Shown here one piece after another: positions 140-39,287 of a stretch of 64,000 nt of DNA (positions are counted from its first letter, which is position 1; every line of letters starts with the position of its first letter). The stretch comes from Lingula anatina (Eukaryota > Animalia > Brachiopoda), in assembly GCA_051362555.1 (NCBI GenBank), contig CM120649.1, forward strand, positions 11,346,001 to 11,410,000. Direction: 5' to 3'. Made by a program: the position numbers and the translations under genes. The notes under the pieces are model-generated. The model saw only the letters and a program-made list of their open reading frames with translations. It made no database searches and was not told where the DNA came from.

Positions 140-3100
140 CTGCAATGCCAGCGAGTTTGAAATCAATTAAGGTACTAAAAGCAAATTTCCATATACAAGT
201 ACACTCAAACCCGTTATTTCAACTTGCAAAAAGGAGAATTCAAGAAGTAAACCGTGGTACTCAGTTCAGTGTTGGAATACTGAACTGTACGTGTATCGCG
301 ATAATGAAAAGTTTGAGAAAATAAAAGAAAAATCAGGGGAGTATTCATCTTGAGGCTCATTCACTTTCATTTTTACACTTATAGAACCCACCTCTCCAGA
401 TTTTGATTACGTCCCAGACTATAGGCTTTATACTCTCTACTCTGCACTTTAAGGTACACAAAAGAGGATTTTGTTGCTAAAATTCATATGTAACGAATTA
501 TCCCGTGGTAAACGGAGGGCATTATCTATCCATTTATGTATTTAAAGTTTTAATTGTCCACATACCGCACGCCATTAGTCCAAATCCGGAGAACGTGCCT
601 CGAAAAATCGTGACCGTTCACATCTTTAAAACATCTTTTAAAAAGCGACCTACTTCTAAAACTTACCTAACCGTTGCTGACACTCCTCTTGTGCTTTATA
701 AAATGAAATTGAAAAAGTAAAAGAAGCAGTTTAGTTGCACGTTTCGGTTGCTAAAATGTGTAGTTCAAGCCGTATGACAAGAAATAAGCCATATAAATAA
801 ACTGAAAACAATGAGATTTCTTCCACAATAGTTAAAAGACGAATAACCAAAAAGTTATGAATAATTGAGATGCTTCTGTACTTAAATATTATTACCAGCT
901 ACTGGCAGTAAATTCTGAAGGGTAAGCAATATGTGAGACAACACATATTGACATGTATAACGATGTATTGTATAACATAACACCTGACCCCCTCCCTACG
1001 CCTAGTACTTACAGCCACAGTATATTGCCAGAAACCCGAAGTCCTCTACACTGTCATCACTGTGGAAATGAACCCACATTCCGTTCTCAGCAGATACTGG
1101 GTCAGGTATCACAGAACCACAGCTCTTTAATAAAACATTCCCCATCGCCGATCCATTCCTGACCTAACAATGATTAAATATTCAGTTCAGCAATTTAGAC
1201 CACCAGTCCTTGTTGCATTTATAAAACTTGAGTTCGAAAATGAATATTATTTGTAACTTCCAATATCTAAGTACGAAAGTGTGAACAAATACGAATAACT
1301 TAAGACATACAACTACAGTTCCTGTGCACAGACACAAACGACGTACGACCTTTAACTCACAGAACATACACATCAATGAACGCATACTTATAACACATAA
1401 ACAAACAAATTTAGTACAATTTAATGTCGAAAATGTAGTAATTTTTTGTCCAATTTGTCGGCACCATACGTTTTTCTTTCCTTAAAAGGGGCATTTATAT
1501 TAGCCTATAACTGTCTCAAAGCAAGACTTATTTTGAGACATCAGATTTTAATATTTATCATTAATATTTACGGATGTAATATTTGTTCTCCATGTTTATT
1601 ATTTACTTTGTAGTTGGTTCTATTTTTATTACTATTAAAGGTGAAAACAACAAACTGCCACCTTCAAATACACATATTTTCATGAATGAAAATATGATTA
1701 AAAAAAACCAAACAGCAAAACTACTCAATCTTTCACAAAAGGAAACTGTAATCCACAAGGTGACATACATAAAAACATCGACTCACTTGTAAGTAGTCCG
1801 AAGAACAGTTGGGACCTCCTTGTAGAACAAAACTTACGAAAGCTATCGTTACGCCACGTGCATAGTGATAGTAATAGTGAGGTACGCGGAAGGCACAGTT
1901 GATACTTCTATTGTAATTGGACGGATAGTTTGGTGAGGCGAAAACCCCAGATGTGTAGTTATAATAGTGTACGTGTCCGCAGGGGTCGTAGGGAGCTGTA
2001 AATAATAATAATAAGAAGAATTTTTAAAATAACAAGGACTAGATGATCGCAGCGACGATAGCAGCGCCATCTTTTGTACCACTGGCGGGATAAAGAGCAT
2101 TCAAGTCCAATGGTAACTGTGGGTGAATCTTTAGGAAATTACGGAATATAACGGATATAATTGTGGAAAGTGCATGGGGCGGATCCAGGATTATATGGAG
2201 GGATCCGCAGGTGCGAAGGGCGAACGGTTTAAAACTATGATTCAGCTTGTCAAAATTATAATTTCAAATATAAATTATAGACAATCAAAGTACAGGGTTT
2301 TTTTAATTGAATAACAAAGATAGAGATTATGCAGTTAGTTGAGTAGCGTTGCTCAAAATGCACTAGATAGACATATCTATTGTACAATGTAACGTTGACA
2401 AATATAGTGAAACTTGCAATTTGAAACAATTTCGAAATGTAACAGTATACTATACTGTAGAAGTTGAAACATTGCCATCAAAATCATACTCACAGACATT
2501 GTAAATGGCCTTGAATCCAACTCTCCTTGTATCTGAGTCAGAGTGGAACCGCACCAGCAAGCTAGGGGACTGGATTTCTATACTAGGCCTTGTTGATCCA
2601 CAGAAGCGCGGATGCAGAGGCTCCATAGACACCAGATCAAAGACCTGTGGTGACAGAGGTTTATTTCTATTGGATCTATGCATAGCCTACTTATATTGAA
2701 AATTGTTTGCGGAAACTAATATATATATGTGTGTGTGTGTGTGTGCGCTTGTGTGTGAATCTTGTTGACAGTTTCATCTAGACTTGACTACTCGCTAAGT
2801 AAGTCGATAGAGCGGGAAAGGGTCGCCAATAGCTTCTCTTCGTACATTTAAAAATACCTGAACTTAAAGATACAAGTATAAATTTCAGGCAAAACTTATA
2901 AAGTAATTTTACTTCATAAACAACATCATAGTAATGCGGTTTATCTCGCTAAACGATTCACCTTATCAAGTTTGAATTCGCAAGATAACAAAAACGTCAC
3001 ATACCTCGACAAAATCGTTGCACTCAGCGTCAAATTCGAACACCTCTACAAAATTTAACCTGACATAGGAATGATCCGGTGTTTCAGGAACGATAGTATA

Positions 3101-3262
3101 TTCACAATCTATGTTATCTATGTACCCGTAAGGATAATATGGCGATGTGATTTCTCCATATCCGGCACTTATATTAGTATTCCCACACGGGTTTTCTGTA
3201 AAACAATCAAGTTACAATCTATTTTACCATAAACAATCGGATGTAGATTCTCTGAATAAATT

Positions 3263-3293
<31 letters not shown>

Positions 3294-4370
3294 CTTGATT
3301 CTTAATTACACCTTATCATTAATTATTTCGAAAATTAATTAATTCAGGTAATTACGATAAATAATTCATTATCATTATTACAATTTTATTAGGTTATTCA
3401 TAGAAAGCATCGAGAAATGAGCGCACATGTATCTTAAATACACACTTTCACTGTACATCACCCAAACTTAGTTTTAACCAACAAACGAAGTAAGACATCA
3501 TTTGTGCTCTCAGCTGCGATCCGGCCTAAGGTGCATCGACCTTGACATTGGCTTCCGACCTTTGGCCACCTACACACAGCCGCTTATGTCATTATTTTTA
3601 TTTTTATTATTACTATTATATACTATGGGCCGGAGGCCTTGAAAAACTGAATAAATTATTATTATTATGTCATGCAACAACCACTGAACTCGAACAAGGG
3701 TCCACAAAATTAGTTCAGTCCATGTGTGACAGGAATGGTAGTCATGGAAACATAAGTCGTTAGTGTCATATATGATTAGTACAGGTTAGGGTTAGCTGTT
3801 GTAACATAATACAATGTCCAGGGTTCAATATCATTTGTATAAGTTAGGGTTATCGAATTAATCTATGGGACGAATGTAACTTAAACAAAACATTGGAAAT
3901 TATACAGCACTATGGTTTATAGTGGACTACCATTTCTGTCAAACAGACTGATGGCTGACAACAATCATACAAGTACACTTTTACATGCAATGCTTGTTAA
4001 TAAATATAGCAACCGTACTTGACAAAAGACGTATATCTTTATTACTGATTCTTCAAAATCAACAAGATATATTGTATGTGTTCTTATAACATGAAAGAAC
4101 CATATACTAACCGATTCGTTTTCGGCACTCTTGAATTGCTGGCATTTTAATAAGATAAAAAATTCTATTACACAAACGAAAACACAAAAATAGTCAATGG
4201 ATATGCTTTATTCAGGCCATTGGCTAAATTCGTAGGGTTGCAGGCTTAAGCTATACAGTGCAAACCTATTCTAAGTAAGTTACTTTTTAATATTGTCCGG
4301 AAGAAAATCTGTTACTGCTACTACTACAAACACTATACAACAACTACTACTATTACTTCTACTACTACTA

Positions 4371-4409
<39 letters not shown>

Positions 4410-7400
4410 TAATGATAATGATTATAATTATAATGATAATAATGAATAACAGCTTATAGAGCAAAGGCACTGGGTGGACGTTGACATTATATAAACAAAA
4501 GCAGTTACTGTAAAAGAACAAATGCAGTAATAATGATTGGATTTAATCTAAAGCCTTTTATGAAAATAATTAGTGAAGCATTTTGCAAATAACTATCAAA
4601 TATGGCAAATTTTGTTCTATTTTCCATTTCACTCACAGTTGCAGTTTATTGCCAAAAACCCGACATGGGTATAGCTGTGATCACTGTGGAAATGGACCCA
4701 CAGACCATGCTCATCATAAACTGGATCAGGTAATACAGATCCACAGCTCTTCGAAAGATAATTCCCGGATACACTTCTTATCTGATGGAATACAAAATAT
4801 GAGTTTAAACAACTTCATAGGATATTATTCAGTTAAATTAGAAAAAGTTCCCTTTTTCATAAATCGCTCTTTAGAATGCCTTCTTATAAACAATGAAACA
4901 TGGTAATGTTATATCGTTTGCAGTACATACATTTATTATCTAAATCATCAAGGGCAATTTGCATATGCACACTTTCCCGGGCTTTCCCATTCAAATCCCA
5001 TGTGGCACCAGGTTTGGTGTGGGAATCACAATCATACAAAACACTCACTCACTACACTGACAAAACTTGTAACAGACACCATGCCAACTCACCCGAACAA
5101 AGTCGTAGTTGCAGCTCCTTTGGTGTTCCAGCTGAAAAAGGACAAAGACAAGCGCCACACCCTCTCCTGGTTGCAGAGGCGTTATAACATAGTGACAGTC
5201 GGTGTTATCTTGATAATTTCCTTGCGGGAAGTTTGGCGAATGAATCACGCCGTGGTTAAAGTCCCCAGCACATGTACTACTTACGCCACCTGTGGTGATA
5301 GAAAAATCACTAGTGAAAAGGTAAATCCTTAATAAAGAGGCGTAACATGTTCTGGGCCTCTTTTGGCAATATGTGGTCACCCAACCGTTTCTTTGTGATA
5401 AAAATACAATAACTCGCAATCGATGTCGTTTAGTAGCGTATCAAAGGGAAATGCAACCCTGGGCTAGCGTTGGACTTGTTTATACTACGTCCACAATGTA
5501 GGTGCATCACTTCCTTATGGTAGGTGATCAATCAGTTAACTGAATCCCCTAGAGGAATAAAGTAATGCTATTTCTCCATTTAGCAGCTACTGGTAGTATT
5601 AAAATTGTTGCTTGCCACCTTTATTATTATTCTGATGTCTATAGGGAGAATCTTTAAATGGAAATGAGCTATCCTGGTGAATATTGAAATTAAACAACAG
5701 GCCCAATACTACGTGTTGAATAGAATGATCACTGCTGTATTTATTTTTTCAATCATAATTTCACCTGATGAAAAATTTTCAGATCCTTGAGGGGCAATTC
5801 TCTCCGTGGAAAGACTTGAAAAACCAAGCGTACAGCTGTATCTTAACAGAACTCTAATATTTTATTTCAACAGGTCTAGAGATAATTGTAAAATATAAAA
5901 GACGTAGGGCCTACTTTGTTACAAGCAATCCCTTTCCAACTCACCTGTCACGGTACAGTTTTCTGCAGCTGCAAGAAAATGGATGAAAAATACAGTAAAA
6001 ATGGTGATAAGTGGACTACATGTAACTATTATTTGACTTTCACTGTTTGTTTGTTTTTTTATGCACCGAAATTGGGGAAGAAACTACCTTTCCATATAAG
6101 ATCTAAAAGTTATTAAGACAATAATAAACTTTCTCTAAAACTAACATTTTAATTTTATTTTCTAATTATTATAATGATATGATTGTTTTTAAAACTTTAA
6201 AGTTTGCATTGTGATAAATAAAGAATTTTTATATTTTAATTGTGCTTGTTTGTGTTTTAATAAAATGCATATAAATGTAAGGAAAAAGAATACGCATAAT
6301 GTATCATTATTATTATAAAAATAAATGATGTAAGAAATGAAACACCTGCTTTCTCAAAAATATACTGCTACTAGTTATTTTTACTGTTGCCTTTACGTTA
6401 AATGTACATGAATTGTAATTAAAAGCACACAGGACCTTTATACAATTATATGACTATATATGAATGTTTGTTACAATTCTCGGACCAAAAACTTACATTC
6501 ATTATAGACTGCCTTAAACCCCTTTCCTTTATTTTTTGGATTAGAATGGAATCTTAACAACAGCTTTGAGGCCTTGGCCTGGACGCTTGGGGCAATGGCT
6601 CCACAAGAACGGGGTACCAGAGTTTCCAAGGTAATCAAATTTAAAACCTAAAATAATACATGTACTTAAATGCAAACTCTTTAATATGAACACAAATCAC
6701 CTGCAATAAGAAGATGTTAAATCTATGTTTTTATATTAAAATCGTCATCAATCTCCTTTAAATTCGTTTCTCTCTCTTTCCAAACACTTACAGGCATTTT
6801 AATAAAAGCAGTATTACACGATAAAATCATAGTCCTTAACATGGCTAACGTGGACAATTAATTTTATTGCTCTCATATTATGTAGGCTACAAGCCTTCCA
6901 AAAAGATCTCGAGCAATTTAGTCGCATCTAAATTTCATCCACGTCCCATATTCTCAACCATGGATCCTCAATTAACTTAGAATATGAGAGCTTCCTGAAA
7001 TGTAACTCAAAATGAAACTGACCTCTACATAGTCATCACAGTCAGCCTCGAGGTCAAACTCGCCTGTGAAGGTCAAGGTCATACATGCGCCTGGGACTGC
7101 AGCTGATATAACGTAATTGCAATGTGTCTTGTCGGTGTAAGCAAAAGGATAAAAAGGTGACATGATTTCTCCAGTACCACCAATAAAACTTGTATTACCA
7201 CATGGGTTAGCTGAAATATCAAAAATGCAGGAAAATGAGTGTTAATAAATGAGTGTTAGATCTTTATATGGAATAATAATAATAATAATAATAATGCCTA
7301 GGCCTACTCTTTTTCCTTAATTGTCAAGGGATTCTACAATAACAATTGGGGTTGAAAATAACGATCCTTGAACCCAATTTGAGTTCTAACTTTCTATTTT

Positions 7401-10400
7401 TGTCAGTAACATTTGTATAGAAATGTGATATAATGTTTAATGGACAAAATTTGCACGAAAAGGTACTCGGATGCACAATAACGTATACTGAGTTTTATTA
7501 CACTGCAGATCACCAGTCCATACATTCAATCTAATCATAATGTACATACTATAGACTTAATTTCAGTCTTATATCAATCAGCCATTAAGTAATTTGTGGT
7601 CTTATTTACATATTACCCAACATGATCATGTATCCTAATTGTGTGGAGAGATATAGAGATAGAGAGCTTAAACAATAGAACGATGAATACTGTTGACTGA
7701 CACATTTTACGTAGGGTTTAAGGAGCGTTTAACAATCCTTTTACGTGAATTATTATAATTTGTACTGCAAGATGAAGCATTTGTGTAATCCGTATATAGG
7801 CATATTTACCAGTATGTCCCCTGCATTCCTCTCTTGCTAACAATTGAAAATACAAGTACAATGTAGATATATATAACATTGTGATGGATTTAGACGAAAT
7901 ATAAGCGTATTTACGCTAGGTGTTATAGATATCAAATATTAGAATTTTAATTAATTGCTACAGATCTTTTGAAATAAACATGTTAATACGTAATTTAGAA
8001 GGTAATATATAACATATAAATACAAAAATTGCTTATATAAATAGAATTTGAAACCGTTGGCGGAATTCAAATATAATTCTCTCTCAAACCTCTTTCAAAT
8101 TAAAATTTTTTATGACCACAGTTTATCAATTTACTTACAGTTACAGTATATGGCCATAAAGCCATCATCGCCATCGGAACCATCCGCATGGAAATGGACC
8201 CACAAGCTATTTGGGTCAAACACTAGGTCTGGTATATTGTTTCCACAATTGTGAGATAAAACATCGCCGTTTGATGACCTTATCTGGTAAATGAATTATT
8301 CTGTTATGTAATTATCTGCACATACATAAAAATATGAGATAATAAATATACCAACATAGTGTGCCCAAAAACTTTTTATAATCTGATTTGTTGTAAACAC
8401 AAAACAGGCAGAAATATATAATCTTTTCAAACTACTGAATATGCACATTTAAAAGCATTTAATTGTGTGCGTATTCAAAAAAATTCTCATGGTAAAACTG
8501 ATGCTGTATGAAAGTGTATTGTGTTTCCTTCACTGTCAGTGCTTTTGATTATTTCAATCATTATATAATTTTGTTTCTAAGGAAAGACACATATCGGTAT
8601 ATTTTGTATGATTATTAATTTTATTATTATTATTATTATTACTTTGATCACGTTGAAAAGATGGCACGTAAAACTATCAACCTACCTGCACGTAATCTCC
8701 AGCGCAGTTATCACTTGAAGTCACTCGAAATGATACGAAAGCAAGTGCCACGCCCATTCCGGGTTCAGCAGGTTTAATGGTGTAGTAACAATCAGTGCTG
8801 GGGTCGTAATTTGCCACTGGAAAGTTTGGTGTGGTGACGTAAGTGGAATTGGACTCTCCACCGCAAGTGCTTGTTACACCGCCTAAAGTATTGAATTCAA
8901 TGGCATTACAATATCTCTCAATAGGGGGGCATTATATATTTTACTCCTATACCCAAAAGGGCGCTTCTACTTTGCATATGGTAATTTTTCTCCTTTTTAT
9001 TAGCACCTTGACAGTATTCTAATAAGTATTGATTTACGACACTGTAATCATTCGTTGGTTCGTTCGAAATGGACATGCACTCTTTGACTCAGAATATATA
9101 TGTCAACAAACTTTACTTTGTCGTGTCAATTAACAATCGGAGGCATTGTATAACGTGGCGGTTGTATTTAGCAGAATCATCTCATTGTTATTGATGACTG
9201 GGAATTAATTGAAGCGAATGGCAGATGTTGAGGAGACCTTTTGCTCACAAATATGCCATGATATAAAAAGGTAATACAAAAAAAAGAATTAGCAAAATGC
9301 CCCAACCAGCTGGTTGCATTGCTTTAATAATCTGCTGAACACAGCAATTTATCATATAATACTATGCATTAAATGCGTTAAAATCATTTGTGACCTTTAC
9401 TACCCACCTTTTAGACGACAGCTTCCTATGGCTGTGCAAAATGAAAATATGAATTGGATAAAAAGGTGGGTCAATAAAATGTATATGGCAACATAAAAGA
9501 TTGAAAATGTTAAAATCGCATATTTGCATATTATCTATTACCACAACTACAGCAAATTAAACTTACTCCTTATTACCTCTTAAAAAGTACTTTAAGGGGA
9601 TAATAACTCCTCATTTTGGCAGGAAAAGTGGTATAAAACTGATTTTCCCGAGGTAGACGACGATTTTCCCATATTTCTATGGTTAATAAATACGTTCCAT
9701 ACAACTTTATTCAATCGTTTTCTAAAAAGTGTTTTTTAAATAATCTCTGAAGCTATTTTTTTTCGGGGGTTAACCGCCTTAGACCGTCCACGTGGTTCGA
9801 TGGCAAGCACAGAGTTCAGGATTGCGATAACCGCCGTTATGGTGGTAAAATAGAACTCATTATATTGTTATGTGTTGTTTAAAATGTATTTTTGTTGAAT
9901 TTTGAATCTCATATGAAGAGTTGTTATCCTTTTTACTGATCATGTTTAGAAACATTTAACAATGTAAACATTGGCTTTGTCTATCTGTCTTTTCACCATT
10001 TTCAGGTGACATGTAAAAAAAATGAGTATACGCATAAGTACAAAGTCATGACCAAACTCTATTAAACAGAACGTTAGGTTAATTAACGTTTAGAATTACA
10101 TATACTAAAAGTGTAAAAAGGTTTGAAATGCTTCAAAAATATCTCATATTTTAACTCCTCAAACCTGTTATTGACCTGAAATAAGCCATACTCCATCAAT
10201 TCATCAAAGTGATAATTCAGTAACATTGCTTTTTCATCGACTCTTATGTAAAGATGATTAAAAGATCGATGCAATCTATGGACCGGTACTCACATTCGTT
10301 GTACACTGCTTTGAATCCCTTCCCTATATTTGTAGAATCAGAATGGAAGCGGACCTCCAGAAAACCCGCATGTACTGCAACACTGGGTGCGTTACTACCG

Positions 10401-11835
10401 CAGGTCCTTGGAATAAGGGTTTCCATGGTGACTGGGTTGATTACCTGTAGGTATATTTATCTACGTTTATGCATGATCAGGCTTGATATTTAAGGAAGGA
10501 GCCAGATTTGATAAAAGCTCGGAAACAAATGAAAAAATGTTTCAAATCTTTCTGAAATAAGTTTTATGCGTATACATGTAACCTCAGATGTACTTAAGTT
10601 ACACGGAATTATGTCAACATTAATATCGTTTTATGAAAGAATTTCTCGATTGAATTAATAAAGGCATTCGATTCTACTAGATTAAATTTCTATCGAATAG
10701 CTTATTGCTTTAAGAGACAACTCTTTATGGAGGTAAAAATGCGAATTAACTCATTGTTTTGAAAACCCGGAACAACACTTTTTCACGTTAGATGCAACAT
10801 CTCGGAAAAAATCCTGTTTATTTGTTTTATTGCATGAAATATTTAGTAATTACTTATAGATAAATGATAAATCCATGAAAAGTTCAAGAAAAACAAGAGT
10901 AGCAAGCTGCTTTAAAATCTGGAAGCATTGCACCCACCTCAACATAGTCATTACAGGCAGCATCGATATCAAACTCGTCAATAAAGGTCAAGGTCACACA
11001 TGATTCTGGGTTATAGGGCGCTATATTGTACTTGCAGTTAGTGTTATATGTGTATCCATAAGGATAAAAAGGTGACGTGATTTCTCCACTGCTATTAAGA
11101 AAAGTGGACTCTCCGCATGGGTTATCTGCAATAGCACAATACCATAAGTTTTACCATGAGTGCCAAACCGTTATGTAAAAAAAATCCAGAAAATTTGAAC
11201 GTGTTTCTCTTGTTATCAATTAACCAAGGCGTATCATATCCCAATCGTTAACAAAAATACGATACATTAACTCGCATGTGAATTCTAGACTTTTGAAGCA
11301 CTTAAGTAATATAAAGGTAGACTGGTGAACATCGTGGCGGTAAAAATTAGAAATTTCAATTAAAAATTATCAACTGCAAATTTTCAACTGATCAGGGTGG
11401 AACATAATTTGATGAATAAGAGAAATTTTATGACTTTTCCGAGAAAATATCTTTAGGCTATTATAAAAAAAACTACGGATAAATGAAGCATATAACTCAT
11501 GAAAGCAATATGTAATTGAAAACACCCAAGTCACAGACATACAACGTGCCTTAGACTGTAGAACAGACTGTAGGTAGACTATGGGTTAGAAGCAAACATA
11601 TATTTACATTTATGAGGCAGGAGTTTGTTGTTAATTATTTATACTAATTCCTGTTGAAACTTGGCTGATTAAATTAACAAAAGTATAATAAAGAAAAGGA
11701 ACAATGCGTAAGTTTTTTAACGTCAACTAGAGAACAGAAAGTGAGAAGAAAACAATGTTTTTTTTTTCTCATACTTTCGAGCAATCACAAGGCTGAAGAG
11801 ATCAAGTAACACGGAGAGTGATTTTTTTCTTTTGA

Positions 11836-11871
<36 letters not shown>

Positions 11872-19153: not shown

Positions 19154-19207
<54 letters not shown>

Positions 19208-25200: not shown

Positions 25201-28200
25201 CTCAACATAGTCATCACAGTCAGCCTCGATGTCAAACTCGTCCACAAAGGTCAATGCCACGCATGATTCTGGGTTATAAGGCGCTATATTGTACTTGCAG
25301 TCAACGTTTTTAGTGTATCCATACGGATAAAAAGGTGACGTGATTTCACCACTGCCATCAAGAAAAGTGTACTCTCCGCAAGGGTTTGCTGTAATAACAG
25401 AAGTTAATAACTCACACAATGAGCATTGAACCTTAACATAACTTTGTATTGAGTTATTTGAAATAAACATATGAGACATTTTCTGAGACGTTCGACACCT
25501 TACTCGCTACCTGACAAGTTGCAGCTTTTCTTTTTTAGTAAATAATGAACTAGATCGATGGAAGAGTGTAACATGGTGTCGAAGGTTTAAAATTTAGCCT
25601 ATTTATGCTTTAGTGTGGGGACAGATAAATCTAATAATTATTATTTTTACTTTTAAAGTCGCTAGACTGATGTTCCACGTGGACAAAAATAATTCTTCCA
25701 CTCTCTTTTCATAAAATGAAAATTTTAAATGGACCTATATAATGCGAATGAGTGCACAGCATAAACAATATTCATAAACAATATTCTCCAAATACATGAA
25801 AAAGGATATTTACCAATCAATTCTTGACACTCATCGGTGGCTGGCATGTAAAGTAAACGTAAAGATAGTTAATATCAGTATCAAAATGATCAACAAGAAT
25901 CTATGACACAAGAAAACGCTCGAAAGTTTACAGTGGTGATTGTTATTTTCACAGTATGACAACTGATGCAAGTGATTTAACTAGTATGGGCAATGCCAAA
26001 AAAAAAAAAAAAAAAAAAACTGATTAAGTCATGATCATCAGTTTTGGTACTTTAACTATTCCCTAGAGTATTTACACGCATATATACTTAAACCTGCATA
26101 TACATAAGTGAACATTTGTTATTAATGAGATCAATTCGGTCCTTGATCAATCTCACTTACAGCGACAATAAATGACCTGGAAACCTATATCGACCGTCCC
26201 GCCATCTGTGTGGAAGTGGATCCACAGGCCATTTGGGTCATAGACTGGACTAGGCACACTGGAACCACACCTCTTTAACAATTGATTTCCTGATGATGAC
26301 TCCCTTCTTATCTATTCAAAAAGATTTTTTGTGATAACAACATGTAACAAGAAGAAGAAAAAGAAGAAGAGAAGATGAAGAACAAAATAACCGGACGAGT
26401 GCTTTGGCGTGCTGTGTTTAAGTTGGGAAAATGCTCCTACAGCTTAAGATTCTGACATCTCCTCGCAACTTTATTTAAAACTTACATCTTCTTTTTCTGA
26501 ATCTTAACACGCAAGTCTTGTTTACTATCACATGGATATAAAATAATACCTCAACATAGTCGTCTTGACAGCTGCCATTGTATTCTAAATCAAACGTAAC
26601 AAAAGCAAGTGCCACGCCCCTTCCCGGCAGCAGGGATGTTATGGTGTAGTAGCAGTCACTATTGTCGGCATACTGCAGCGGGTAATTAGGACTGGTGATG
26701 ACGCCGGAATCGAAAACTTCTCCACAGGAACTTGTGACGAGAAAGTCTATAAAAAAGATGAATGCATGTCATTTGACATAGAAATAAAAGAAAGGTACTG
26801 TATGTAATGATAATTTTCCGTTCAGATATTAAATCAATTTCCAATGTAATCTTTGTCACGAGCTCTTAAAATGAACATGTTAGATACATAATTAAAAGCA
26901 TCTGAAAATGTACATGCAAATTTTACTAATTAATATTGAAGTTATAAGTCACAATTTAATTTTGAATCCGCTCACGGGATGCAACTCTGTCCCTGCCGGT
27001 AACATTATTCTTGTTAGGTTAAATTAGGTTAAAAGGAAAAACCAGATATCAATACTAATTTGAAGTACCTGTGCGTCCCTGTGAATTAAATAAAAAGTCT
27101 TTTATGCAAAGTGCACATTAAACAAACACCAACCTTTTCCCCTTACTTTTCATATACCTCTCAGCCAATTTATCCAATTTATAATTGAATGATTTTTAAT
27201 CTTTTTTTTTTTTTTTGTAGTTATATATTCATTTATTTACCATCAAACGATATCTCTACTTATACGAAGCAGCATAAAAAAGCACTCTCGCTAGAAAAAT
27301 ACTCAAAAATGTAATAATTTTCTTTTATATTAGCATTTCATAGTAGCAGTAGGAAAGTTACATGTGTTTATATGAGCATTCTATAGTAGCTATCCATAGG
27401 AAAGTACGAAAGCCACATGTGTTTCTATACTAAAAGTAATAACATGCACAACTAGTAGTTTCAATGTTTAACTTCACTGTGACACTTTCACAAACCAGTT
27501 GATATACCTGGCTTAGGTCACGCCTGTGAAACAATGGCCAAGTAACGGGAGAAGAAATATTGAGTATTTGCGCAATAAATGCTTAGATGTTTACATGCAT
27601 AACCTATGTGGCCCATCTACGTAGAATAAAAGGTCACATATGAACATTTATGTTTATGTCAATGCCGCGTGCAGGTGCTAATTCTGCCCTGCAAATTAGA
27701 AAGCTGTCGAGTCGCTTTTTTAATGCATTTCACTGTAATGCTCAGCTTTGTCCAAACCACAACGTTGTTTTGTTGAAAAGTTCCATAGCAAGTGCGAATG
27801 TAAATACAGTTTTTGAGGGTTTTATTACCTTTTGTAGAATAATGATAAAATTAATCGTTCCTTACCTTCTTAGTATGAAGCATAGCATTTCGAACATATT
27901 CATAAAAGACCTTAGTCACATGACTGACTTCTGGAATTCGTAAATACGAGTCAGTCATGTTACAGTGGCCCTTTACGGATGGGTCGAAACGCCATGTCTT
28001 GCAGGTTGGATATATGTCCTTTTTAAAAAACAAATAATTTTATTATCATACAATGTATGTATATATATATGTATTGTTTCTTACCTGGCATTTGACAATC
28101 CTTTGTTGCTGCAAAATGAATTAATTACGTTTTAGAAACGGAAGGTGATACTATTAAAATGTTCAAGATACATGTACACTAAACAACGAGGTCCTGCCTT

Positions 28201-31200
28201 ACAAAAAAAGAAAAAAAATTCCACGTCAAAAACTAGCATAAACTTTAAGACTGGTTTGTTTTTGTGCTGGAGCCAAAATATTCACATTAATCTTGAGAAA
28301 AACGTGTTTTTATCTTAAATCAACATTATGAAACAGAAGCCACGTCTATAATACTACTGTTCATTGCCCTTTGGTAAGATGTGTTGTAATCGAATTTAGT
28401 ATTCAAGGACAGGTAGAAAAACAAAAACCCATCAATAAGATTAAAAACACCATTATACATGCAGTATACATTATCTGGTAACGGTATGTAAAGAAAAATC
28501 TATTTGAGCGGGCTTATGGAAAATATCTGAGAGAGAGAAAGAGAGGACGAGAAAGCATATTTCATTTTGGATGAGCTTACAGTTAAACACTGCTTGAAAC
28601 CCTTTCTTTGTATTGGATCCATCGGTTTGGAACCGCACAAGGAGACTTTTTGCCTTGATGTCCCCGCTTGGCTTGTTGGTGCCGCAGATTCGGGGATAAA
28701 TAGCAACTCCTGAGATTGGGTCGACAATCTATATAATAAAAGATAATATACCTATTGTGATAAAATTAATATACTAAATAAAGTAAAGTTCTTGAATGCT
28801 GGTTGCGTAATTCCCACAGGGTATCTTTTCAGTGACTAATCGGGAATTAAGAGGGAAGCTTTTTAGTGGGTCCTCATATTTGATCTACGAATCTGTTACA
28901 CCGCTGTTCTGAATGCACTATAAAAGAAAGGCACGGTCTCATTTTTAACTAGAATTGTGAATAAAAATATTGTCCTGGGTTACTCCCTGAACCTACCAAA
29001 TCATATCCGCCCTTGATTTTCACCCGCTATTTTCCATTAGGGAAAAGTAATATTTGGTCATAAAAAAATTTTTACTTCTTGGAAAAATGTAATATTATTA
29101 TTTTAATACATAATTTAATATTATTTAATTTCATATATGAACAAGCACAGAGAAATCACCAGACGGACAGACAAAAGACAGATAAACAAAACACAGTCAT
29201 GGCCTCTTGCTGTGTATACAATGCAACTGCCTCACAATTCTGATATTAGAATAGACTTACATCTATATAATCAGAACACCCAGATTGTAATTCAAATTCT
29301 CCCACAAATGACAAGGCGACACAGGATTCCTGATCATCCAGTGTAATGGTGTACTCGCACTTAATATTATCAGGGTATGCTATTGGGTAAAACGGCGACT
29401 TTATCTCTCCGGTACCAGCAATAAAATTGCCGTCACGGCACGGATTTTCTGGAAACGTTGATATGGAAGGCATAATGTACAGATATACATCTGGATGCAT
29501 ATACAAGTATAAACGTCTGAATACGGATCGTTAATGTTTAGATAAACAAATGAATTACTTGCTACATTAATAATTAAGTAAAACAAATTGAGGTGACATA
29601 TTAAATGTCTTTGCCTTAAATAGAAATATGACAAACTAGGCGTATAGCGGTTAACGTACCATTTCTGTTGGACAATTTACTTGTTAAATAACTGTACTAC
29701 ATTTATTTTAACTGTATTACTGACAGTATGTTTACAGCGCCGATAGCTAATATTTACCAGTTTGTCGTGCACACTCCTCAGTTGCTGATGTTTGAAAATG
29801 TAAATAAAATATAACTTTTCAATAGTGAATAACAGTCAGTGTGTATAAGCTACATAAAGATCTTAAATTTAAACTATAACATGACGACAATTAATGTTCA
29901 TACTGGGTACATTATAAATGGACACGGTGCCGTTCAACAAAAGCACTTAAGAGTATTGACAAGTTTTCAAATGTGGTGTACAGTCCCTTTTTGCTAATGA
30001 ACCATGTTAAAGGCTAACAAGCATAATTTATTTACTTACTGTTACAGTATATAGCCATGAATCCGGCATCACCACCGGAATCATCCGCATGGAAATGAAT
30101 CCACAAGCCATTTTGGTCAAACACTGGGGTTGGTATACTGTTTCCACAAGTGTGGGATAGAACGTCACCAGTTGAAGACCTTATCTGTTGGCAAATTATT
30201 TCTTTTTTTAATGTGATGATCACCTCATACTGCGATACATATAGGAAATTATACTTCAATGAATGTAAACCCTGTGCTTTGATTGTCAAAAAATAATACA
30301 CTACTATTCAATGGATAAATATGAAATCGTAACACGATTGCCTACTTTTGGCACTACCCCAAAGGCAAATTTTAAGCAATAATATATGAGTATGAGGCTC
30401 TCCTCTGGATAAGAATGGGAGTATCGTTTGGAACGAACCAAGACATCCATCACTTCCAAACTGAATATTGATTTGATCATATTAAATGAAAGTCTGTTGT
30501 GTCATATTTCGCCGTTGCCAGTGGCATGATTTAAAACTCTTTTAATGTTATCAAGTATTACGAAGCATACACTGATACTTGAATGCAATGCGCCATAGCT
30601 AATTATTATAAAATTAGGTACTGCAAACTGCCCACCCACCTGCACGTAATCTCCTGTACAGTTGTCGCTTGAAGTCACTAGAAATGATACAAAAGCAAGT
30701 GCCACGCCCATTCCGGGTTCAGCAGGTTTAACAGTGTAGTAACAATCGGTGCTGGGGTCGTAATTTGCCACTGGAAAGTTTGGTGTGGTGACGTAAGTGG
30801 AATTGGACTCACCCCCGCAAGTGCTTGTTACACCGCCTGCAGTAATGTATTTTATGACATTAGAACATCCCAACAAGTGGCATATATTTATATACATGTA
30901 ACAGGGGAGATTCTTTGTTGTTGGGTTCGTCTCCGTATTGGTCACTTCCCATGACAGAACTCAGAAGAGCATTAATTATTTAACGACCCTGTTATAATTA
31001 ATGTGTTCGTTGGAAACGCATGTACCTAACCAAAAAAGATTGTAATTTTCAATTGGTATTCGAAACATGTGTCAACAAACTACATGTTGTCGTTTTAACA
31101 TATCGGTGTGATGATGTACTGTTAAATAAGGTGGTTGTCATTCAGCGGCAGAAGGGACGTGTCATAGAAGTATAAAACATTTTCTTAAAACTGTTAATTT

Positions 31201-34200
31201 AACCGTTTCCATTATAAGAAAACACTAAGAATTAACGCTCCCATATTAGCTAGTTATCAGCTGAACTCATCTGATAAAACTATATATTAAATGTATTATA
31301 TGTTTCTTCCTTACCCACCTTTTAGACGACAATCTCCAATTGCTGTGCAAAAATGAAAGTATAAATTGGATGAAAAAAGCTTCTGTGAAAATGCCCTTAT
31401 TAACAGTTAAAAATGGGAAATCTTGAAATCGTATATTGGCATACCATCCATTACAACAAAAAACAGAAAAACATTTGTTGAGAATACATTGGTTTATGTT
31501 TTTACTGTTATCTTTATTAATTAGTTATATGTATGGTGTTGTTTATTGATATGGCATTAAATTTCTCCCTCTCCAACGTTTTCTGGTAGCATATAAAAAT
31601 AAATAAATGACTAAATAAACGAAAAATGACAATGACAAGATCAAATGAAAAACCGAAAGCTAGAAAACTTAATATCTGATAAGTGATATTTTGATTCATA
31701 AATTTGAGACGAGCCATAACCCCCCATTTCAACAATTTGATAAAAACATGATAAAAAACTGTTTGTTTGAACTCTAAATGTGTTGTCTCTGTTAGGCATA
31801 ATATTTCGGCCCTTCATCAATGAAGATTAAGTAGCGTGAACAATGGCCTAGCTAGGTCTAAACATTGCGTCTAACTAGAGAAAATACTGGTACGTTTAGT
31901 CTCTTTAAAAAATGTATCTCTTTACCAATATGAGAATTTTTAAAAAAAATATGTATCGATCTCGAAGTCTATCGGCCAGTACTCACATTCATGGTACACT
32001 GCTTTAAATCCCTTCCCTATATTTGTAGAATCAGAATGGAAGCGGACCTCCAGAAAACCCGCATGTACTGCAACACTGGGCGCGTTACTACCGCAGGTCC
32101 TTGGAATAAGGGTTTCCATGCTGACTGGGTTAATCACCTTGTGTATATTTAAAGTATGATAAAATACAATTTTACCAGTACGTTTACATTAACAGTTTTG
32201 TGTGACTAAAAGTATTTCGAATTAATTTATTGTGTTTAAAATTCACATGTAACGACACTTTGAACATGTTATATGCAGCATCAAATTAGGAAATGTCCAT
32301 GGTGTCCCCATTATAACAATAAAAAGGACAGAACTAACAAGCTGCTATGAAATAAAGATTTAAATTGTTGCACCGACCTCAACATAGTCATCACATTCAG
32401 CCTCGATATCAAACTCGTCCACAAAGGTCAAGATCACGCATGATTCTGGCTTATAAGGTGCTATATTGTACTTGCAGTCAACGTTTTTTGTGTATCCATA
32501 CGGATAAAAAGGTGACGTGATTTCACCACTGCCATCAAGAAAAGTGGATTCTCCGCATGGGTTAGCTGCAATACCAGAAGTTAATAACTCACACAATGAG
32601 CACTGAACCTTTATATAACTTTGTATTGAGTTATTTAAATAAACACACAATACATTTTCTGACACCATTCTCGCTTCCTGACAAGTTGCACATTTTCACT
32701 TTTAGTAAAAATCGAACTAGATCGATGGAAGAATGTACCATGGTGACGAATTTGGCATATTTATGCTATTTATGCTTTAAGTGTGACAACCGGTAAATAT
32801 AATAATTATTATTTTAATTTTTTAAAATTGCTTAATTTACTGATGTTCCTTATTAAGTTCCACATGGACAAAAAATTCCACTCACTTACTTTTCATAAAA
32901 TAAAAAAATTAAATGGACCTATATATTGTGACTGAGTGCACAGCATAAACAATATTCATAAACAATATTCTTCAAATACATCAAAAATGATATTTACCAA
33001 TCAATTCTTGACACTCATCGGTGGCTGGCATATAAAGTAAACGTAAAGTTAATATCAATGTCACATTTATCTACAAGAATCTATGACACAAGAAAAATAC
33101 TCAAAAGTTTACAGTGATGATTGCAATTTTTACAGTATCAAAACTGATGCAAGTGATTTAACTAGTATGGGCTATGGCAAAAAAAAAAAATGATTTAGTC
33201 ATGATCATCAGTTTTGGTACTATTCTCCAGAGTGAACATATACTCAAACTTGCATATACATTAATAAACATTTATTCTTAATGAGATGAATTCGGTCCTT
33301 GATTTATCTTACTTACAGTGACAATAAATGGCCTGGAAACCTATATCGACCGTCCCGCCATCTGTGTGGAAGTGGATCCACAAGCCATTTGTGTCATAGA
33401 CTGAACCAGGTACATTGGAACCACACCTCTTTGACAATTGACTCCCTGATGATGACTCGCTTCTTATCTGTTCAAATAGAATATTATGCGATAACAATAT
33501 ATAGCAACAAGAAGAAAGACAAGTGCTTTAGCGCGCTCTGTTAAAATTGTGAAAATGCTCCTGCAGCTTAATTCTGATGTCTGCTCTCAACTTTGTCTCA
33601 AACTTAATTAAATCTTCTTTTTTCTAGATTCAACAGGTAAGTTTTGTTAACTATCACATGGGTATAAAATAATACCTCAACATAGTCGTCTTGACAGCTG
33701 CCATCGTATTCTAAACCAAAGACAACAAAAGTGAGTGCCACGCCCCCTCCCGGCAGAAGTGGTGTAATGGTGTAGTAGCAGTCAGTATTGTCGACATACT
33801 GCAGCGGGTAGTTAGGACTGGTGATAACACCGGAATCGAAAACTTCCCCACAGGAACTTATGACGAGAAAGTCTATGAAAAGGATAAATGCATACCATTT
33901 GACATAGAAATAAAAGAAAGATATGTAATGATAATTTTCCTTTTAGATGTTAAATCAATTTCTAATGCATTCCAATTTTTGTCACGAGATTCTAAAATCA
34001 AGCACCGTAGTTATATAATAAAAGAATCTGGAAATGTACATGTAAATTTCACTAATTAATACTGAAATTATAAGTCAGAATTTAATCTTGAACCCGCTCA
34101 CAGGATGCAACTCCTTAAATATATCACTACCAGTAACATCATTCTTGTTAGGTTAAATTAGGTTAAAAGGAAAAACCAGATATCAATACTTATTTGAACT

Positions 34201-37200
34201 ACCTTGGCGTCCCTGTGAAGTAAACAAAAAGTCTTTTATGCAAAGTGCACATTAAACAAACGCCAACCTTTCCCACTTACTATTCATATACCTCTCCGCC
34301 AATTTATCCAATTTATAATTGAATGAATTTTAATCTTTTTTCATTGTTATATATCAATTTATTTACCATCAAACGACAACTGTACTTATACGAAGCAACA
34401 TAAAAAAGCACTCTTAAAATTTTAAAATACTCACAAATGTAATAATTTTATTTTAAGCTGGGCACACTTAATTATTTTATACGAGCATTCTATAGTAGCT
34501 ATCCATAGGAAAGTACGAAAGCCACATGTGTTTCTATACTAAAAGTAATAACAGGCACGACTGGTAGTTTCAAAGTTTAACTTTACTGTGACATTTTCAC
34601 AAATCCGTTTATATACCTGGCTTAGGTCACGCCTATCAAACAATGGCCAAGTAACGGAAGAAGAAATATAATTTGAGTATTTGCGCAATGAGCGGTTAGA
34701 TATTTACATGCATAACCTATGTGGCCCATCTACGCAGAATAAATATATACGTTTATGTTTATTTCAATGCCGCGGGCAGGTGCGAATTCTGCTCTGCAAA
34801 TAAGAAAGTTGATAAGGCTTTCACACTGGGGTATTGCTTGAAGAAGTGTCGCATTTTAAATGAATTTAACTATAATGTTTAGCCTTGTTCAAACCACCAC
34901 GTTTTATTTTTGATTTTTGATTTATTTATTTTTGTTGAAAAGTTCCATAGCAAGAGCGAATGTAAATACAGTTACTGAGAGTTGAGTTACCTTTTGTAGA
35001 ATGATGATAAAAATTAATCGTCCCTTATCTTCTTAGTATGAAGCATAGCATTTCGAACATATTCATATAGACCTTAGTCACATGACTGACTTCTGGAATT
35101 CATAACGACAAGGCAGTCATGTAACAATGGCCCTTTATGGATGGGTCGAAATACCATGTCTCGCAGGTTGGATATCTGTCTTTTTTAAAAACAATTACTT
35201 TTATTACCATACAGTATATGTATTTAATATATTGTTTCTTACCTGGCATTTGGCAATCCTTTGTTGCTACAAAATGAATAATTATTTTTAGAAAGCGGAT
35301 GGTGAAACGATTAAAATGTTCAAGATACATGTTCACTAAACAACGAGGTCCTGCCTCACGAAAAAATTTCCACGTCAAAAACTGGCATAAACTTTAAGAC
35401 TGGTCTGTTTTTATGCTGGATGAATCATTAAGAGAAATGGCAAAAAGTCAGGTTAGATCGCCTCTATTTTAGTAGAATACTCCATCTTGAGTCGAAATAC
35501 GTGTAGTCATTCTTATTTTGAGTCAAAATGGAAATTTTCATATTGAGCCAAAATATTCATATTAATCTTGAGCAAAAAATATTTTTATCGTAAATCAACG
35601 TTCAGCTTAGGTTTCCTTGTGAAACAGAAGACGCGTCTAATACTACTGTTCATTTGGTACGATTCGTTGTAATCAAACTTAGCATTCAAGGACAGGAAAA
35701 ACTAAAAACTCATTAATAAGATTAAAAAACACCATTACACATGCAATACACATTATCTGGTAACGGTATGAAAAGAAAAATCTATTTGAGCGCACTTTTA
35801 GAAAACAGCGAAAGAAAGAGAAAGGGCGAGAAAGCGGATTTCATCACCGATGATCTTACAGTTAAACGTGGCTTGAAACCCCTTCTTTCTATTGGATCCG
35901 TCGGTTTGGAACCGTACAAGGAGGCTTTTTGCTTTTATCTCCCCGCTTGGCTTGTTGGTGCCGCAGATACGGGGATAAATAGCAACTCCTGAGATTGGGT
36001 CGACAATCTAGATAATAAAAGACGATACTCTTATTGTGATATAATTAATATACTAAATAAGGCTAAGTTATTAAAAGTTTAATTTTTCTTAATGACCTTT
36101 TTGTGTGGTGTGAAACGCTGTGCTCATTACAGAATATATGGACAACAGTTCTGAGACAAACTTTAAGGGCAAATTCAGTACAGCAGACTAACAGATCCGC
36201 AGATCAAATATAGTCGACCCACTTGAATGCTGGTTGCGTAATTCGCTCGAGATATCTTTTCAGTGTCTAATCGGGAATTAAGCGGCAAGCTTTTTAGTGG
36301 GTCGTCATATTTGATCTGTGGGTCTGTTAGTCCGCTGTTGTGAATGCGCTCTAAGGGAAAGACAGGGTTTCATTTCTAACTAGAATTGTGAATCAAAATA
36401 TTGTCCCGCATAACTCCCTAAACTCACCAAATCATATCCGCCCGTGATTTTCACCAGCTATTTCCCATTAGAGGAAGGTAAAATTTAGTCAAAAAATAGT
36501 AATTATAGGTCTTGGAAATTTTAAAATAAAAACGAAAGCCATTTTATAGGAACAAGCACAGAGAAATCGCCAGACAGACAGATAAAAGACAGTCATCAGG
36601 CCCGTAGTCTGGGGGGGGGGGGGAATTCGGGGGGTTCGAAAGAACCACCCTTTTTGGTGGGAAAAGGTCCACTCTGGGTAAAATTTGATCTATGTACATG
36701 TATTTGAGGATTTTATGGTTAAAGGTCCACTTTTTCATAACCCCCCCTCTGGCTACGGGCCTGGACATGGCCTCTTGCTGTGTATACAACGCAACGGCCT
36801 CACAATTCTGATATAAGCATAGACTTACATCTATATAATCAGAACAGTCCGATTCTAGTTCAAATTCTCCCACAAAGGACAAGGCGACACAGGAGTCCGG
36901 ATCATCCGGTGTAATGGTGTACTCGCACTTAATATTATTAAGGTATGATATTGGATAAAACGGCGATTGTATCTCTCCTGTACCAGCAGTAAAGTTGCCG
37001 CCACTGCATGGGTTATCTGGAAACATTGATAGAGAAGGCAAAATGATGAAAATGATAGGTAAAGATGGATGGGTAGATAATCTAATATTTGGTTTGTTTG
37101 TGTATATTAAAACAAATGAATGGATTGGTAAATCAATGAGTATATAGATATTGGTCGAGATAACATACTTTAATATTTTGTATTATATTAAATATATTTT

Positions 37201-39243
37201 AAACTTTTGTATTCTATTGGTTTACTTTAAACACCGTATGTCGAAACAAAAATGATACTGTATTCTTTGTGCTTTTGAGTTGTTTTGAAATTCTCAGCAG
37301 TAAAAAAAGATGCGCTTTGTTACTTACTTATCTGCTCTGTACATTCCTGTATGGCTTAAAAAGAAAATGTTATTTAAGAAAACCAATGGTCATATTGATA
37401 TCTGGATAAATGAACTGCCAAGACCATTGTGCTATTTACTAAATACACTTGAACACAAATTTTAACTTGTCTCTCTCGGTACATTATCTTTATTTGAGTA
37501 AGTAAAGATTTATTTCGATAATCATTTGAATTCCATCTACAGCTATTGCATTTTAAAAAAGCCAGTTCCTAAGATCTCTGGATTTTCTATGTGTTTTGTG
37601 ACATATTGACTTTAGAAGTTTAAACGTATTCATTGTTTTCACAAAACAGACAACAATACATAGGAATATTACTGGATGAAAAAAAGCGAACACACAAGCA
37701 AACACAACGCCTTAACCTATTTTGTGTACAAGAAGTAAAGTAGGCTGTCAGGCCGACGTCGTAGTGAGAAAATTGAATTGTGGTATAAAGTCAATTTTAT
37801 AGCTTATTATCGATACATGTATGATAGGGTAATGAGTAATCAATCTCAGATAAGCATCGTTGAATTTTTCATATAAAGAAGACATTTTGCGACGCACTTT
37901 CGTGCATGACCGTGCCTCGACAGTCTTTATTTTTTCGTTATACCACACTTTTGCATTTTCATCATAATACAATTCTATAAATTATAAAGACCAAAATACG
38001 TGTATTAATTTTGAAATGTTTTCTTTTCTCAAAGCAGTACTAATTTTCTAGCCTTTGGAGCATTGTTACAACCCACTTTGAAAAAATTACGAAATTTGAA
38101 AAATTTTTTCAAATCGCGTCAAAAATGGGACAAAGTCAACGCGATTTGAAAAAATATTTCAAATTGCGTTAAAATCGTTGACAGACTCAACGCAATTTGA
38201 AAGAAAAATGTAATATTTCAAATTGCGTCAAACAGGCGCATTTTAACACACTTTGAAAAATTTTAAGAAAAATGTTAAGATGAGTATCTGCCTATGCCTA
38301 ATCACCTGACTTTCTATAGGCCTATATATACAATGGCCTATTTGGTAGAAATGCGGTTGCTGGGAAGTTGTAGGCCTATAAATAGCAAACCAGGGGCCCG
38401 TTGCTCAAAGCCCTCTTAAGGCCCGCTTCTTAACCAAAATTAGAGACCCTTTTAATAATTTCACTTCATTTTGGCCTATCAAGTTTCATTTTCCCTTTGC
38501 ATTTTCCGAAATTTCTTCTTGCCTTTTGCAATCGACAGATTCATTCAAGAAAATAAATTGATAATAAGCATGTCAACTGAATTCATAACCTCAAGCAAAA
38601 TGAAATAATTTATGAATGTATGTTCTTAACGCAGTTTGAAATAATTTTTCGAACTGCGTTGACCCAGTCCACCAATTTAAGGCAGTTTGAAATATTTTTT
38701 CAAATTGCGTTGAGTCTGTCCACGAATTTAACGCAATTTGAAATATTTTTCAAATCGCGTTGACTTTGTCCCATTTTTGACGCGATTTGAAATTTTTTTT
38801 CAAATTGCGTAATTTTTTCAAAGTGGGTTGTAACCTAGAGCATAGTCAGAATGCTGCGATCTGAACATGGCACAAGAAGGCCTCATAAACCAGAATTTCT
38901 GTTCGTGCTCTCGAGCCACAGATTTAGTGGTCGCGACCATCACATAAAATAGCACTAACAATTTGCCCCCCTTTCACCCGGATCTCTCACCGTTTACATT
39001 AGGTGTCCTTTTTCTTAACCCCGAACTACATGTATTTTCAATATTAATTCCAATGTTCTCTCTATAATCACCGGCACTTACTGAACGCGCCGAAAGGGTA
39101 GGTTAAAAGGCTTGACGGTTCGCAATTTGTATCGCGGTGCCCGCCACATTTTTACGTTCGCGCCATGAAAACACGGTTGGAGTCTTAATAATTCGACAGC
39201 ATTCAGAGGCATGAACGACTATAATGCCCCACTAGACCGTAGC

Positions 39244-39287
<44 letters not shown>

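What the first reader, a model, noticed from the sequence alone, without database searches (positions are those of the whole stretch)
667..37354. 18 hidden single-cysteine microexons (27 nt after odd, 24 nt after even CUBs) link the CUB domains
Seen: after every odd-type CUB lies a 27-nt AG/GT-bounded exon encoding (S/T)x(E/Q/D)ECxxxx (37328, 32998, 29758, 25814, 22435, 19816, 15099, 12479, 7810, 4112, 667); after even-type CUBs lies a 24-nt exon encoding SxxxCxxx (35243, 31319, 28085, 23996, 16727, 9408, 5945). All are phase 1-1 with Cys at codon 5, and length and Cys are kept even where surrounding introns are unalignable. The ORF track does not call them as exons. Inference: a two-CUB, six-exon building block with dedicated disulfide-bearing linkers. 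Each linker is skippable in frame, so splicing could tune inter-domain geometry or expose free thiols. I do not recognise this architecture from cubilin, tolloid or DMBT1-type genes, but cannot verify novelty.
Basis: partly seen in the sequence, partly recalled or inferred. Interest (0 to 1): 0.85.

Follow-up and report, generated by a model that had tools for sequence, protein, structure and literature searches.

The report
Cysteine microexons clasp brachiopod CUB repeats
A brachiopod gene for a long chain of CUB protein domains holds 18 tiny 24- or 27-base exons, each adding one cysteine that likely bonds back to the domain just before it, so they are likely fixed structural parts rather than splice switches.

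Summary
In detail: 18 of 18 microexons lie at the given places (minus strand, AG..GT, phase 1-1, Cys at codon 5) and evolve like coding exons. They sit in a gene of a signal peptide plus at least 20 CUB domains; part of it is letter for letter RefSeq XP_013401675.2 (Lingula anatina), which already includes 3 of the 6 microexons in its span. The interpretation needs changing. All 18 modules with a microexon have six cysteines: four canonical, one extra inside the domain, one in the microexon. The one complete module without the extra cysteine also lacks the microexon. So each microexon cysteine most likely pairs with the preceding CUB, and the building block is three exons, not six. Skipping is not always harmless: at 2 of 18 junctions it makes a TAA stop. 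A spider CUB protein shows the even-type cysteine pattern (8 of 8 domains); the odd-type pattern was not seen in 166 other junctions. RNA reads gave nothing on inclusion (no exon covered in 4 runs), and no disulfide was measured. Verdict: real, a new variant of six-cysteine CUB chains, probably constitutive.

The parts
1..43220 (-). Multi-CUB gene: signal-peptide exon, then 20 CUB modules (the 20th cut by the window start); C-terminus outside the window
   Evidence: Model built in script, 2387 aa, no stop; Pfam CUB x6 in the RefSeq part
43166..43220 (-). First coding exon, likely a signal peptide (Met, hydrophobic core, phase-1 donor)
   Evidence: Read from sequence; no signal-peptide predictor was run
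37328..37354 (-). 27-nt Cys microexon after module 1 (odd type)
35243..35266 (-). 24-nt Cys microexon after module 2 (even type)
32998..33024 (-). 27-nt Cys microexon after module 3
31319..31342 (-). 24-nt Cys microexon after module 4; skipping would make a junction Cys
29758..29784 (-). 27-nt Cys microexon after module 5
28085..28108 (-). 24-nt Cys microexon after module 6
25814..25840 (-). 27-nt Cys microexon after module 7
23996..24019 (-). 24-nt Cys microexon after module 8; skipping would make a junction Cys
22435..22461 (-). 27-nt Cys microexon after module 9 (next intact module is odd type)
21938..22116 (-). Broken even-type CUB 5' exon (in-frame TAG, donor lost); its 3' exon and 24-nt microexon are missing
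19816..19842 (-). 27-nt Cys microexon after module 10
16727..16750 (-). 24-nt Cys microexon after module 11; skipping would make a junction Cys
15994..16190 (-). CUB 5' exon of module 12, a chimera of the module-15 and module-9 exons (crossover between exon nt 138 and 169)
15099..15125 (-). 27-nt Cys microexon after module 12; peptide present in the RefSeq model
14602..14780 (-). Second copy of the broken even-type CUB 5' exon
12479..12505 (-). 27-nt Cys microexon after module 13; peptide present in the RefSeq model
9408..9431 (-). 24-nt Cys microexon after module 14; left out by the RefSeq model; skipping makes a junction Cys
7810..7836 (-). 27-nt Cys microexon after module 15; left out by the RefSeq model
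5945..5968 (-). 24-nt Cys microexon after module 16; peptide present in the RefSeq model
4112..4138 (-). 27-nt Cys microexon after module 17; skipping makes TAA
2494..3195 (-). Module 18 (even type): no extra Cys (Tyr instead) and no Cys microexon in the 499-nt gap that follows
667..693 (-). 27-nt Cys microexon after module 19; skipping makes TAA

Best explanation
Each CUB repeat of this likely extracellular protein is built from three exons, and the third, the 24- or 27-nt microexon, supplies a cysteine that likely forms a third disulfide with an extra cysteine of the same CUB domain, so the microexons are likely constitutive. Shown: exons, phases, cysteine counts, co-loss, junction codons, purifying selection. 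In odd-type domains the partner is the Cys right after the Tyr of the last strand (C-x5-C, with the microexon peptide predicted as a short helix); in even-type domains it is the Cys at the start of the strand after loop 4. Inferred: both partners sit at the end of the jelly-roll where the chain leaves the domain, so the bond would pin the C-terminal tail to the domain and stiffen the exit of each linker. The three-exon unit is phase 1-1, so it is copied or lost whole; the array grew by duplication of two- and four-module blocks, with at least one unequal crossover. The product would be a multivalent, partly calcium-dependent binding chain of the cubilin-like kind; its ligand, tissue and C-terminus are not known.
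For: Six Cys in 18 of 18 modules with a microexon; four Cys and no microexon in module 18. Unpaired Cys under four pairing schemes: own preceding domain 0; next domain 4 or 8; two-CUB block 7. Module 18 nests in the even-type clade (100/100), so its state looks like a joint loss. Two broken even modules lost 3' exon and microexon together. TAA on skipping at 2 of 18 junctions. Among 8 distinct 27-nt exons Cys is invariant with codons TGT 4 / TGC 4 and the preceding Glu with GAG 6 / GAA 2; exon identity exceeds both flanks in 11 of 13 within-family pairs, 1 tie-level pair near 1.0 each way making up the rest. pN/pS 0.35 for microexons, 0.31 for CUB exons over 11 non-independent pairs. AlphaFold2 model of the RefSeq protein: helices at 146-151 and 271-279, the two 27-nt peptides. 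Spider protein P0048: loop-4 Cys and tail Cys together in 8 of 8 such domains. A C-x5-C disulfide loop is seen in the Gpr126 linker (PMC6954182, passages); an unpaired CUB Cys gave disulfide-linked dimers in ADAMTS13 (PMC8051872, passages).
Against: No disulfide was observed or measured: the fold tool returns no distances, and the 24-nt linker had pLDDT under 50 at 624-629. The co-loss rests on few events (module 18, perhaps module 20, and one deletion copied twice). No read covered any exon, so inclusion is untested. The RefSeq model leaves out 2 microexons on their own and one with its whole module; its transcript support is unknown. 7 of 11 27-nt exons did not rank first by splice score. 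16 of 18 can be skipped without a stop, and 5 of 7 24-nt skips keep the Cys count by making a junction Cys. That the two partner positions are neighbours across strands is inferred from recalled jelly-roll topology, not from coordinates.
Confidence: 0.7

Rival explanations
1. Regulated splice switches: some microexons, above all the 24-nt ones before Gly-starting exons, are skipped in some tissues, shortening the linker by 8-9 residues and either freeing a thiol or replacing the linker Cys by a junction-born Cys.
For: All 18 are symmetric multiples of three; 16 of 18 skips give no stop; 5 of 7 24-nt skips give TGC or TGT. The RefSeq model joins two junctions directly. TGC lies within 18 nt upstream of 11 of 18 microexons against 7 of 39 other exons. 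A linker exon switches ectodomain shape in Gpr126 (PMC6954182).
Against: The 24-nt exons have the best splice scores in their introns, 7 of 7. The junction Cys follows from Ser and Gly split codons and traces to about one lineage. Two skips give stops. The TGC count includes 2 plain TGCAG acceptors and near-copies. Skipping a 27-nt exon would leave an unpaired Cys.
Confidence: 0.15
2. The microexon Cys bonds to a neighbouring domain or to another chain, fixing inter-domain geometry or making disulfide-linked polymers.
For: In the even type the tail lies between two domains; nothing here measures partners.
Against: Such schemes leave 4 to 8 Cys unpaired in the array, against 0 for the own-domain scheme. 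For inter-chain bonds the strict co-presence with the in-domain Cys would be unexplained.
Confidence: 0.1
3. The locus is a decaying or partly mis-assembled array and the microexons are leftovers no longer used.
For: Two broken exons; two 7.3-kb copies 98.6% alike, which could be haplotypes joined in tandem; no reads on exons in 4 of 4 runs.
Against: 2387 aa open frame; dN/dS 0.12-0.44 in 11 of 11 module pairs; the broken exons can be spliced out in phase. A false duplication would remove only about 3 microexons from the count.
Confidence: 0.05

Closest known systems
Cubilin and cubilin-like all-CUB chains (PDB 3kq4 best sequence and fold match; 'cubilin-like' or 'tolloid-like' tandem-CUB proteins of snails, mussel, ray and fish)
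   Same: Long tandem CUB array, four canonical Cys per domain, acidic calcium-site residues in part of the domains.
   Different: No EGF or coiled-coil part before the first CUB in the model; six Cys per module. In 166 CUB-CUB junctions read in 50 other proteins none had a Cys right after the last-strand Tyr.
Six-cysteine CUB protein of orb-weaver spiders (P0048, GFY44102.1, named 'cubilin, partial'; 5 cluster members)
   Same: Extra Cys at the end of loop 4 together with an extra Cys just behind the last strand, in 8 of 8 domains scored: the same pattern as the even type here.
   Different: The loop-4 Cys is one residue further from the strand, the tail Cys 5-6 rather than 6-7 residues behind the strand end, linkers are long and Pro/Ser-rich; exon structure was not examined; no odd-type pattern. 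Shared origin or convergence is open.
RefSeq XP_013401675.2 'tolloid-like protein 1' of Lingula anatina (P0001)
   Same: The same locus: its exons match modules 12-16 and 18 letter for letter and include 3 microexon peptides.
   Different: 754 aa fragment with 6 CUBs, no signal peptide, no astacin domain, leaves out 3 of 6 microexons in its span; the name is not supported.
Gpr126/ADGRG6 ectodomain (PMC6954182)
   Same: CUB protein with a C-x5-C disulfide loop in a linker and a spliced linker exon.
   Different: There the spliced exon is 23-28 aa, Ser/Thr-rich and lies beside the loop; one switch, not an array; adhesion GPCR.
Neural SRRM4-type microexons and schistosome micro-exon genes (both recalled, no call)
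   Same: Exons of 27 nt or less, symmetric, multiple of three.
   Different: Here one microexon per domain with an invariant structural Cys; no regulation shown; microexons are a small part of the coding sequence.

Membership tests
CUB domain (PF00431) | Pfam match above the curated cut-off | tested here: met
   P0001: 6 stretches, 349 bits; 5 of 5 single exons tested also pass
CUB domain (PF00431) | Four canonical Cys and beta-sandwich fold | tested here: met
   19 of 19 complete modules have the four Cys; model is all-beta per domain, best fold match cubilin
Calcium-binding CUB subclass | Acidic Glu/Asp/Asp triad (motif recalled; subclass described in PMC8051872) | tested here: inconclusive
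   Read by eye from the alignment: full triad in 8 of 19 modules, Asp for Glu in 3 more, incomplete in 8. The scripted column was mis-registered for even modules and is not used.
Cubilin | N-terminal coiled coil and 8 EGF domains before 27 CUBs (recalled) | tested here: not met
   The model goes from the signal-peptide exon to CUB1 in phase; no EGF-like reading frame was noticed in the 3.1-kb gap. Total CUB number unknown.
Tolloid/BMP1 proteases | Astacin domain before the CUBs; EGF domains between them | tested here: not met
   Pfam finds only CUB in P0001; no such exons in the model
Six-cysteine CUB (loop-4 Cys plus tail Cys, as in P0048) | Both extra Cys present together | tested here: met
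   7 of 8 complete even-type modules have both, 1 of 8 has neither; not the pattern of the 11 odd-type modules
Six-cysteine CUB (loop-4 Cys plus tail Cys, as in P0048) | Common descent with the spider-type domains | not tested
   No joint tree was built; the register differs by one residue
Regulated (SRRM4-type) microexons | Tissue-regulated inclusion | tested here: inconclusive
   No exon coverage in 4 of 4 runs laid on 5 of 18 microexons
Regulated (SRRM4-type) microexons | UGC just upstream of the acceptor (motif recalled) | tested here: inconclusive
   11 of 18 versus 7 of 39, but near-copies and plain TGCAG acceptors inflate it
Schistosome-type micro-exon genes (recalled) | Most of the coding sequence made of adjacent microexons | tested here: not met
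   One microexon per about 350 nt of ordinary exons; none adjacent

The most novel reading that the evidence does not exclude
A splice-controlled disulfide switch: the 24-nt exons before Gly-starting CUB exons are alternatively skipped, which removes the linker Cys but creates a new Cys from the split codon (5 of 7 such junctions), re-clasping the domain with an 8-residue shorter link; together with skipping of whole three-exon modules this would give a combinatorial set of CUB chains of different length and bend from one brachiopod recognition gene.
Probability: 0.08. Interest if true: 0.75.

Novelty: new variant of a known kind. Interest (0 to 1): 0.4.

Why it matters
It is a clear case of microexons kept for a structural reason, one per domain across a whole array, rather than as neural switches, with a natural control (joint loss of partner Cys and microexon). 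It shows a CUB cysteine arrangement (Tyr-Cys then C-x5-C helix) not met in the proteins examined. It also shows how annotation drops such exons and leaves models with unpaired cysteines or false stops. It does not by itself open a new biological function.

Tried and rejected
Own genome: none held, so no search for paralogues or for the gene's 3' end in DNA. RNA: no RNA holder listed; 9 raw-read runs offered by species label. 4 of the 9 runs were laid on window 1-11700, which holds 5 of the 18 microexons, reading 6-30% of each run: 137-466 reads per run, piled on intronic repeats, no exon-exon joint; this says nothing on inclusion, and the other 13 microexons were not examined. Protein searches found no other Lingula model of this locus, no C-terminal part and no relative with the odd-type linker; these searches have length and word limits. 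A scripted tail-Cys test flagged 41 of 290 foreign CUBs without a loop-4 Cys; by eye these are the first Cys of the next domain, so I did not count them. Two junctions with two or more Cys were one regex overrun (P0024) and P0048. Protein atlas: generic CUB clusters only. No solved structure with a third disulfide was identified (Cys positions of the hits were not checked one by one). Paper searches returned no description of this gene or exon design; the library lacks most subscription papers. PMC4661386 (2 passages) gave no strand topology. Earlier-findings look-ups were empty. Rejected: six-exon block as the unit; 'all skippable'; pairing with the next domain; the name tolloid-like.
Full report
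Observation. All 18 listed sites are AG..GT-bounded on the minus strand, 11 of 27 nt and 7 of 24 nt. I located the CUB exons and their splice sites and built a model in script: a 55-nt first exon at 43220-43166 that reads like a signal peptide, then 20 CUB modules, the last cut by the window start. One donor was first mis-picked and corrected; the corrected model gives 2387 aa with no stop. Each module has a 5' exon (phase 1-0), a 3' exon (phase 0-1) and, in 18 of 19 complete modules, a microexon (phase 1-1) with Cys at codon 5.

More than chance. The pattern AG, 24 or 27 nt, GT, Cys at codon 5, no stop, occurs 15 times on the plus strand and 11 times at unlisted places on the minus strand. 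That rate predicts about 5 hits in the 18 introns and about 7e-7 for a hit in each of 9 roughly independent lineages. A blind splice-score ranking put 7 of 7 24-nt exons but only 4 of 11 27-nt exons first in their intron (small matrix from this gene's own sites). The coding signal is stronger: among 8 distinct 27-nt exons Cys is invariant with TGT 4 and TGC 4, and the Glu before it with GAG 6 and GAA 2; across old copies exon identity is 0.57 and 0.53 against 0.30-0.38 in flanks; none of 18 has a stop in the used frame while 13 of 18 have one in another frame. pN/pS is 0.35 for microexons and 0.31 for CUB exons over 11 pairs that share ancestry.

What the gene is. One exon search returned a single protein, 100% identical: P0001, RefSeq XP_013401675.2 of the brachiopod Lingula anatina, named tolloid-like protein 1. 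It is a 754-aa fragment with 6 CUBs and no astacin domain. Of 6 microexons in its span it includes 3, leaves out 2 on their own and 1 with its whole module. So the exons are partly annotated, though not described. Further searches found no other model of this locus and not its C-terminus. The array holds repeats of about 7.3 kb at 81-98% identity. The two youngest copies are 98.6% alike and meet in an exon that matches one parent up to nt 169 and the other from nt 138, as unequal crossing-over would give; a haplotype join in assembly is not excluded. Odd and even modules form two clades, 100/100 (all 19 complete modules used).

The key pattern. All 18 modules with a microexon have six Cys: four canonical, one extra in the domain, one in the microexon. 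In 11 of 11 odd modules the extra Cys follows the last-strand aromatic position directly and the loop-4 position is Gly; in 7 of 8 even modules the extra Cys is at the loop-4 position and the other is Asn or His. Module 18 has Tyr there, four Cys, and no credible Cys microexon in the 499-nt gap behind it (best candidate scores 1.3; one 36-nt Cys-bearing candidate scores -4.1). Module 20 also lacks the extra Cys, but its downstream exons are outside the window. Two copies of a broken even module carry a TAG and have lost donor, 3' exon and microexon, giving odd-odd junctions. Counting unpaired Cys under four schemes gives 0 for pairing with the preceding own domain, 8 or 4 for pairing with the next domain, and 7 for a two-CUB block. 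These are few independent events, but all point one way.

Skipping. All 18 exons keep the frame, but the split codon matters: skipping 4112-4138 or 667-693 gives TAA, and skipping 5 of 7 24-nt exons gives a new Cys codon. RNA could not decide. No RNA holder was listed; 4 of 9 offered runs were laid on window 1-11700 (5 of 18 microexons) and covered only intronic repeats, with no exon joints.

Structure. An AlphaFold2 model of P0001 from a 21-row alignment has mean pLDDT 73.9 and pTM 0.39; the two 27-nt peptides are helices (146-151, 271-279, block pLDDT 69 and 81), the 24-nt peptide is coil with pLDDT under 50 from residue 624, next to a non-native neighbour. No S-S distance is returned. From PMC8051872 (passages): CUB domains are jelly-rolls whose odd loops point one way and carry the calcium site, and an unpaired Cys caused disulfide-linked dimers. 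It follows that loop 4 and the C-terminal exit share the other end; that the last strand pairs with the strand after loop 4 is recalled jelly-roll topology. From PMC6954182 (passages): a C-x5-C loop exists in the Gpr126 linker, and a 23-aa linker exon changes ectodomain shape. Supplements of these papers were not read.

Comparison. In 166 CUB-CUB junctions readable by pattern in 50 other fetched proteins none had the odd-type Cys. In a profile scan, 290 CUBs of 47 other proteins, 8 had a loop-4 Cys; all 8 lie in one spider protein (P0048) and all 8 have a tail Cys; 41 further tail hits were next-domain Cys by eye and were dropped. So the even-type clasp has a precedent in sequence, with a one-residue shift; the odd type has none in this sample, which is small and biased to hits of my queries. 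Best solved match is cubilin CUB5-8. The gene is not cubilin and not tolloid by the features tested. The full calcium triad is present in 8 of 19 modules (by eye). Ten paper searches (listings only, apart from the three papers named) found no account of this gene or exon design.

Verdict. The microexons are real. They are best read as the obligatory third exon of a six-cysteine CUB module (0.7). Regulated skipping (0.15), bonds to neighbours or other chains (0.1) and decay (0.05) remain as rivals. Disulfides and inclusion are inferred, not shown. New variant of a known kind; interest 0.4.

Noticed in passing
window 1787-1995, minus: Module 19 has a His/Tyr-rich insertion in loop 4 and more Tyr near its start, unlike all other modules; it has the longest branch in the tree.
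   Followed up: no
window 8663-23561: Two 7.3-kb copies 98.6% alike; six paired exons inside the copies differ at 10 sites, 9 of them in the chimeric exon, so five exons (832 nt) differ at 1 site while introns carry most changes. Recent duplication or joined haplotypes.
   Followed up: partly
window 59620-61242, minus: Single long reading frame for a galactosyltransferase-family protein (Pfam PF01762, E 1.8e-40).
   Followed up: partly
window 51555-52811 and 53862-54596, plus: Two long reading frames (419 and 245 aa), the first Cys-rich; by recall they resemble a somatomedin-B-type receptor ectodomain, but Pfam found no family at E 0.01.
   Followed up: partly
window 38065-38262 and 38626-38834: Inverted pair of about 200 nt at 85% identity built of 50-51-nt tandem units, in the intron before the first microexon; looks like a small transposon.
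   Followed up: no
window about 2224-2267, 3720-3800 and 9890-9933: Short intronic stretches collect nearly all RNA reads laid, with loose ends on both sides: dispersed repeats transcribed elsewhere.
   Followed up: no
window 44393-44824, minus: Broken reading frames that by recall look like the end of a LINE reverse transcriptase; not searched.
   Followed up: no
window 36595-36751 and 46244-46392: A 160-nt dispersed repeat shared by a CUB intron and the region upstream of the gene, 83% identity.
   Followed up: no
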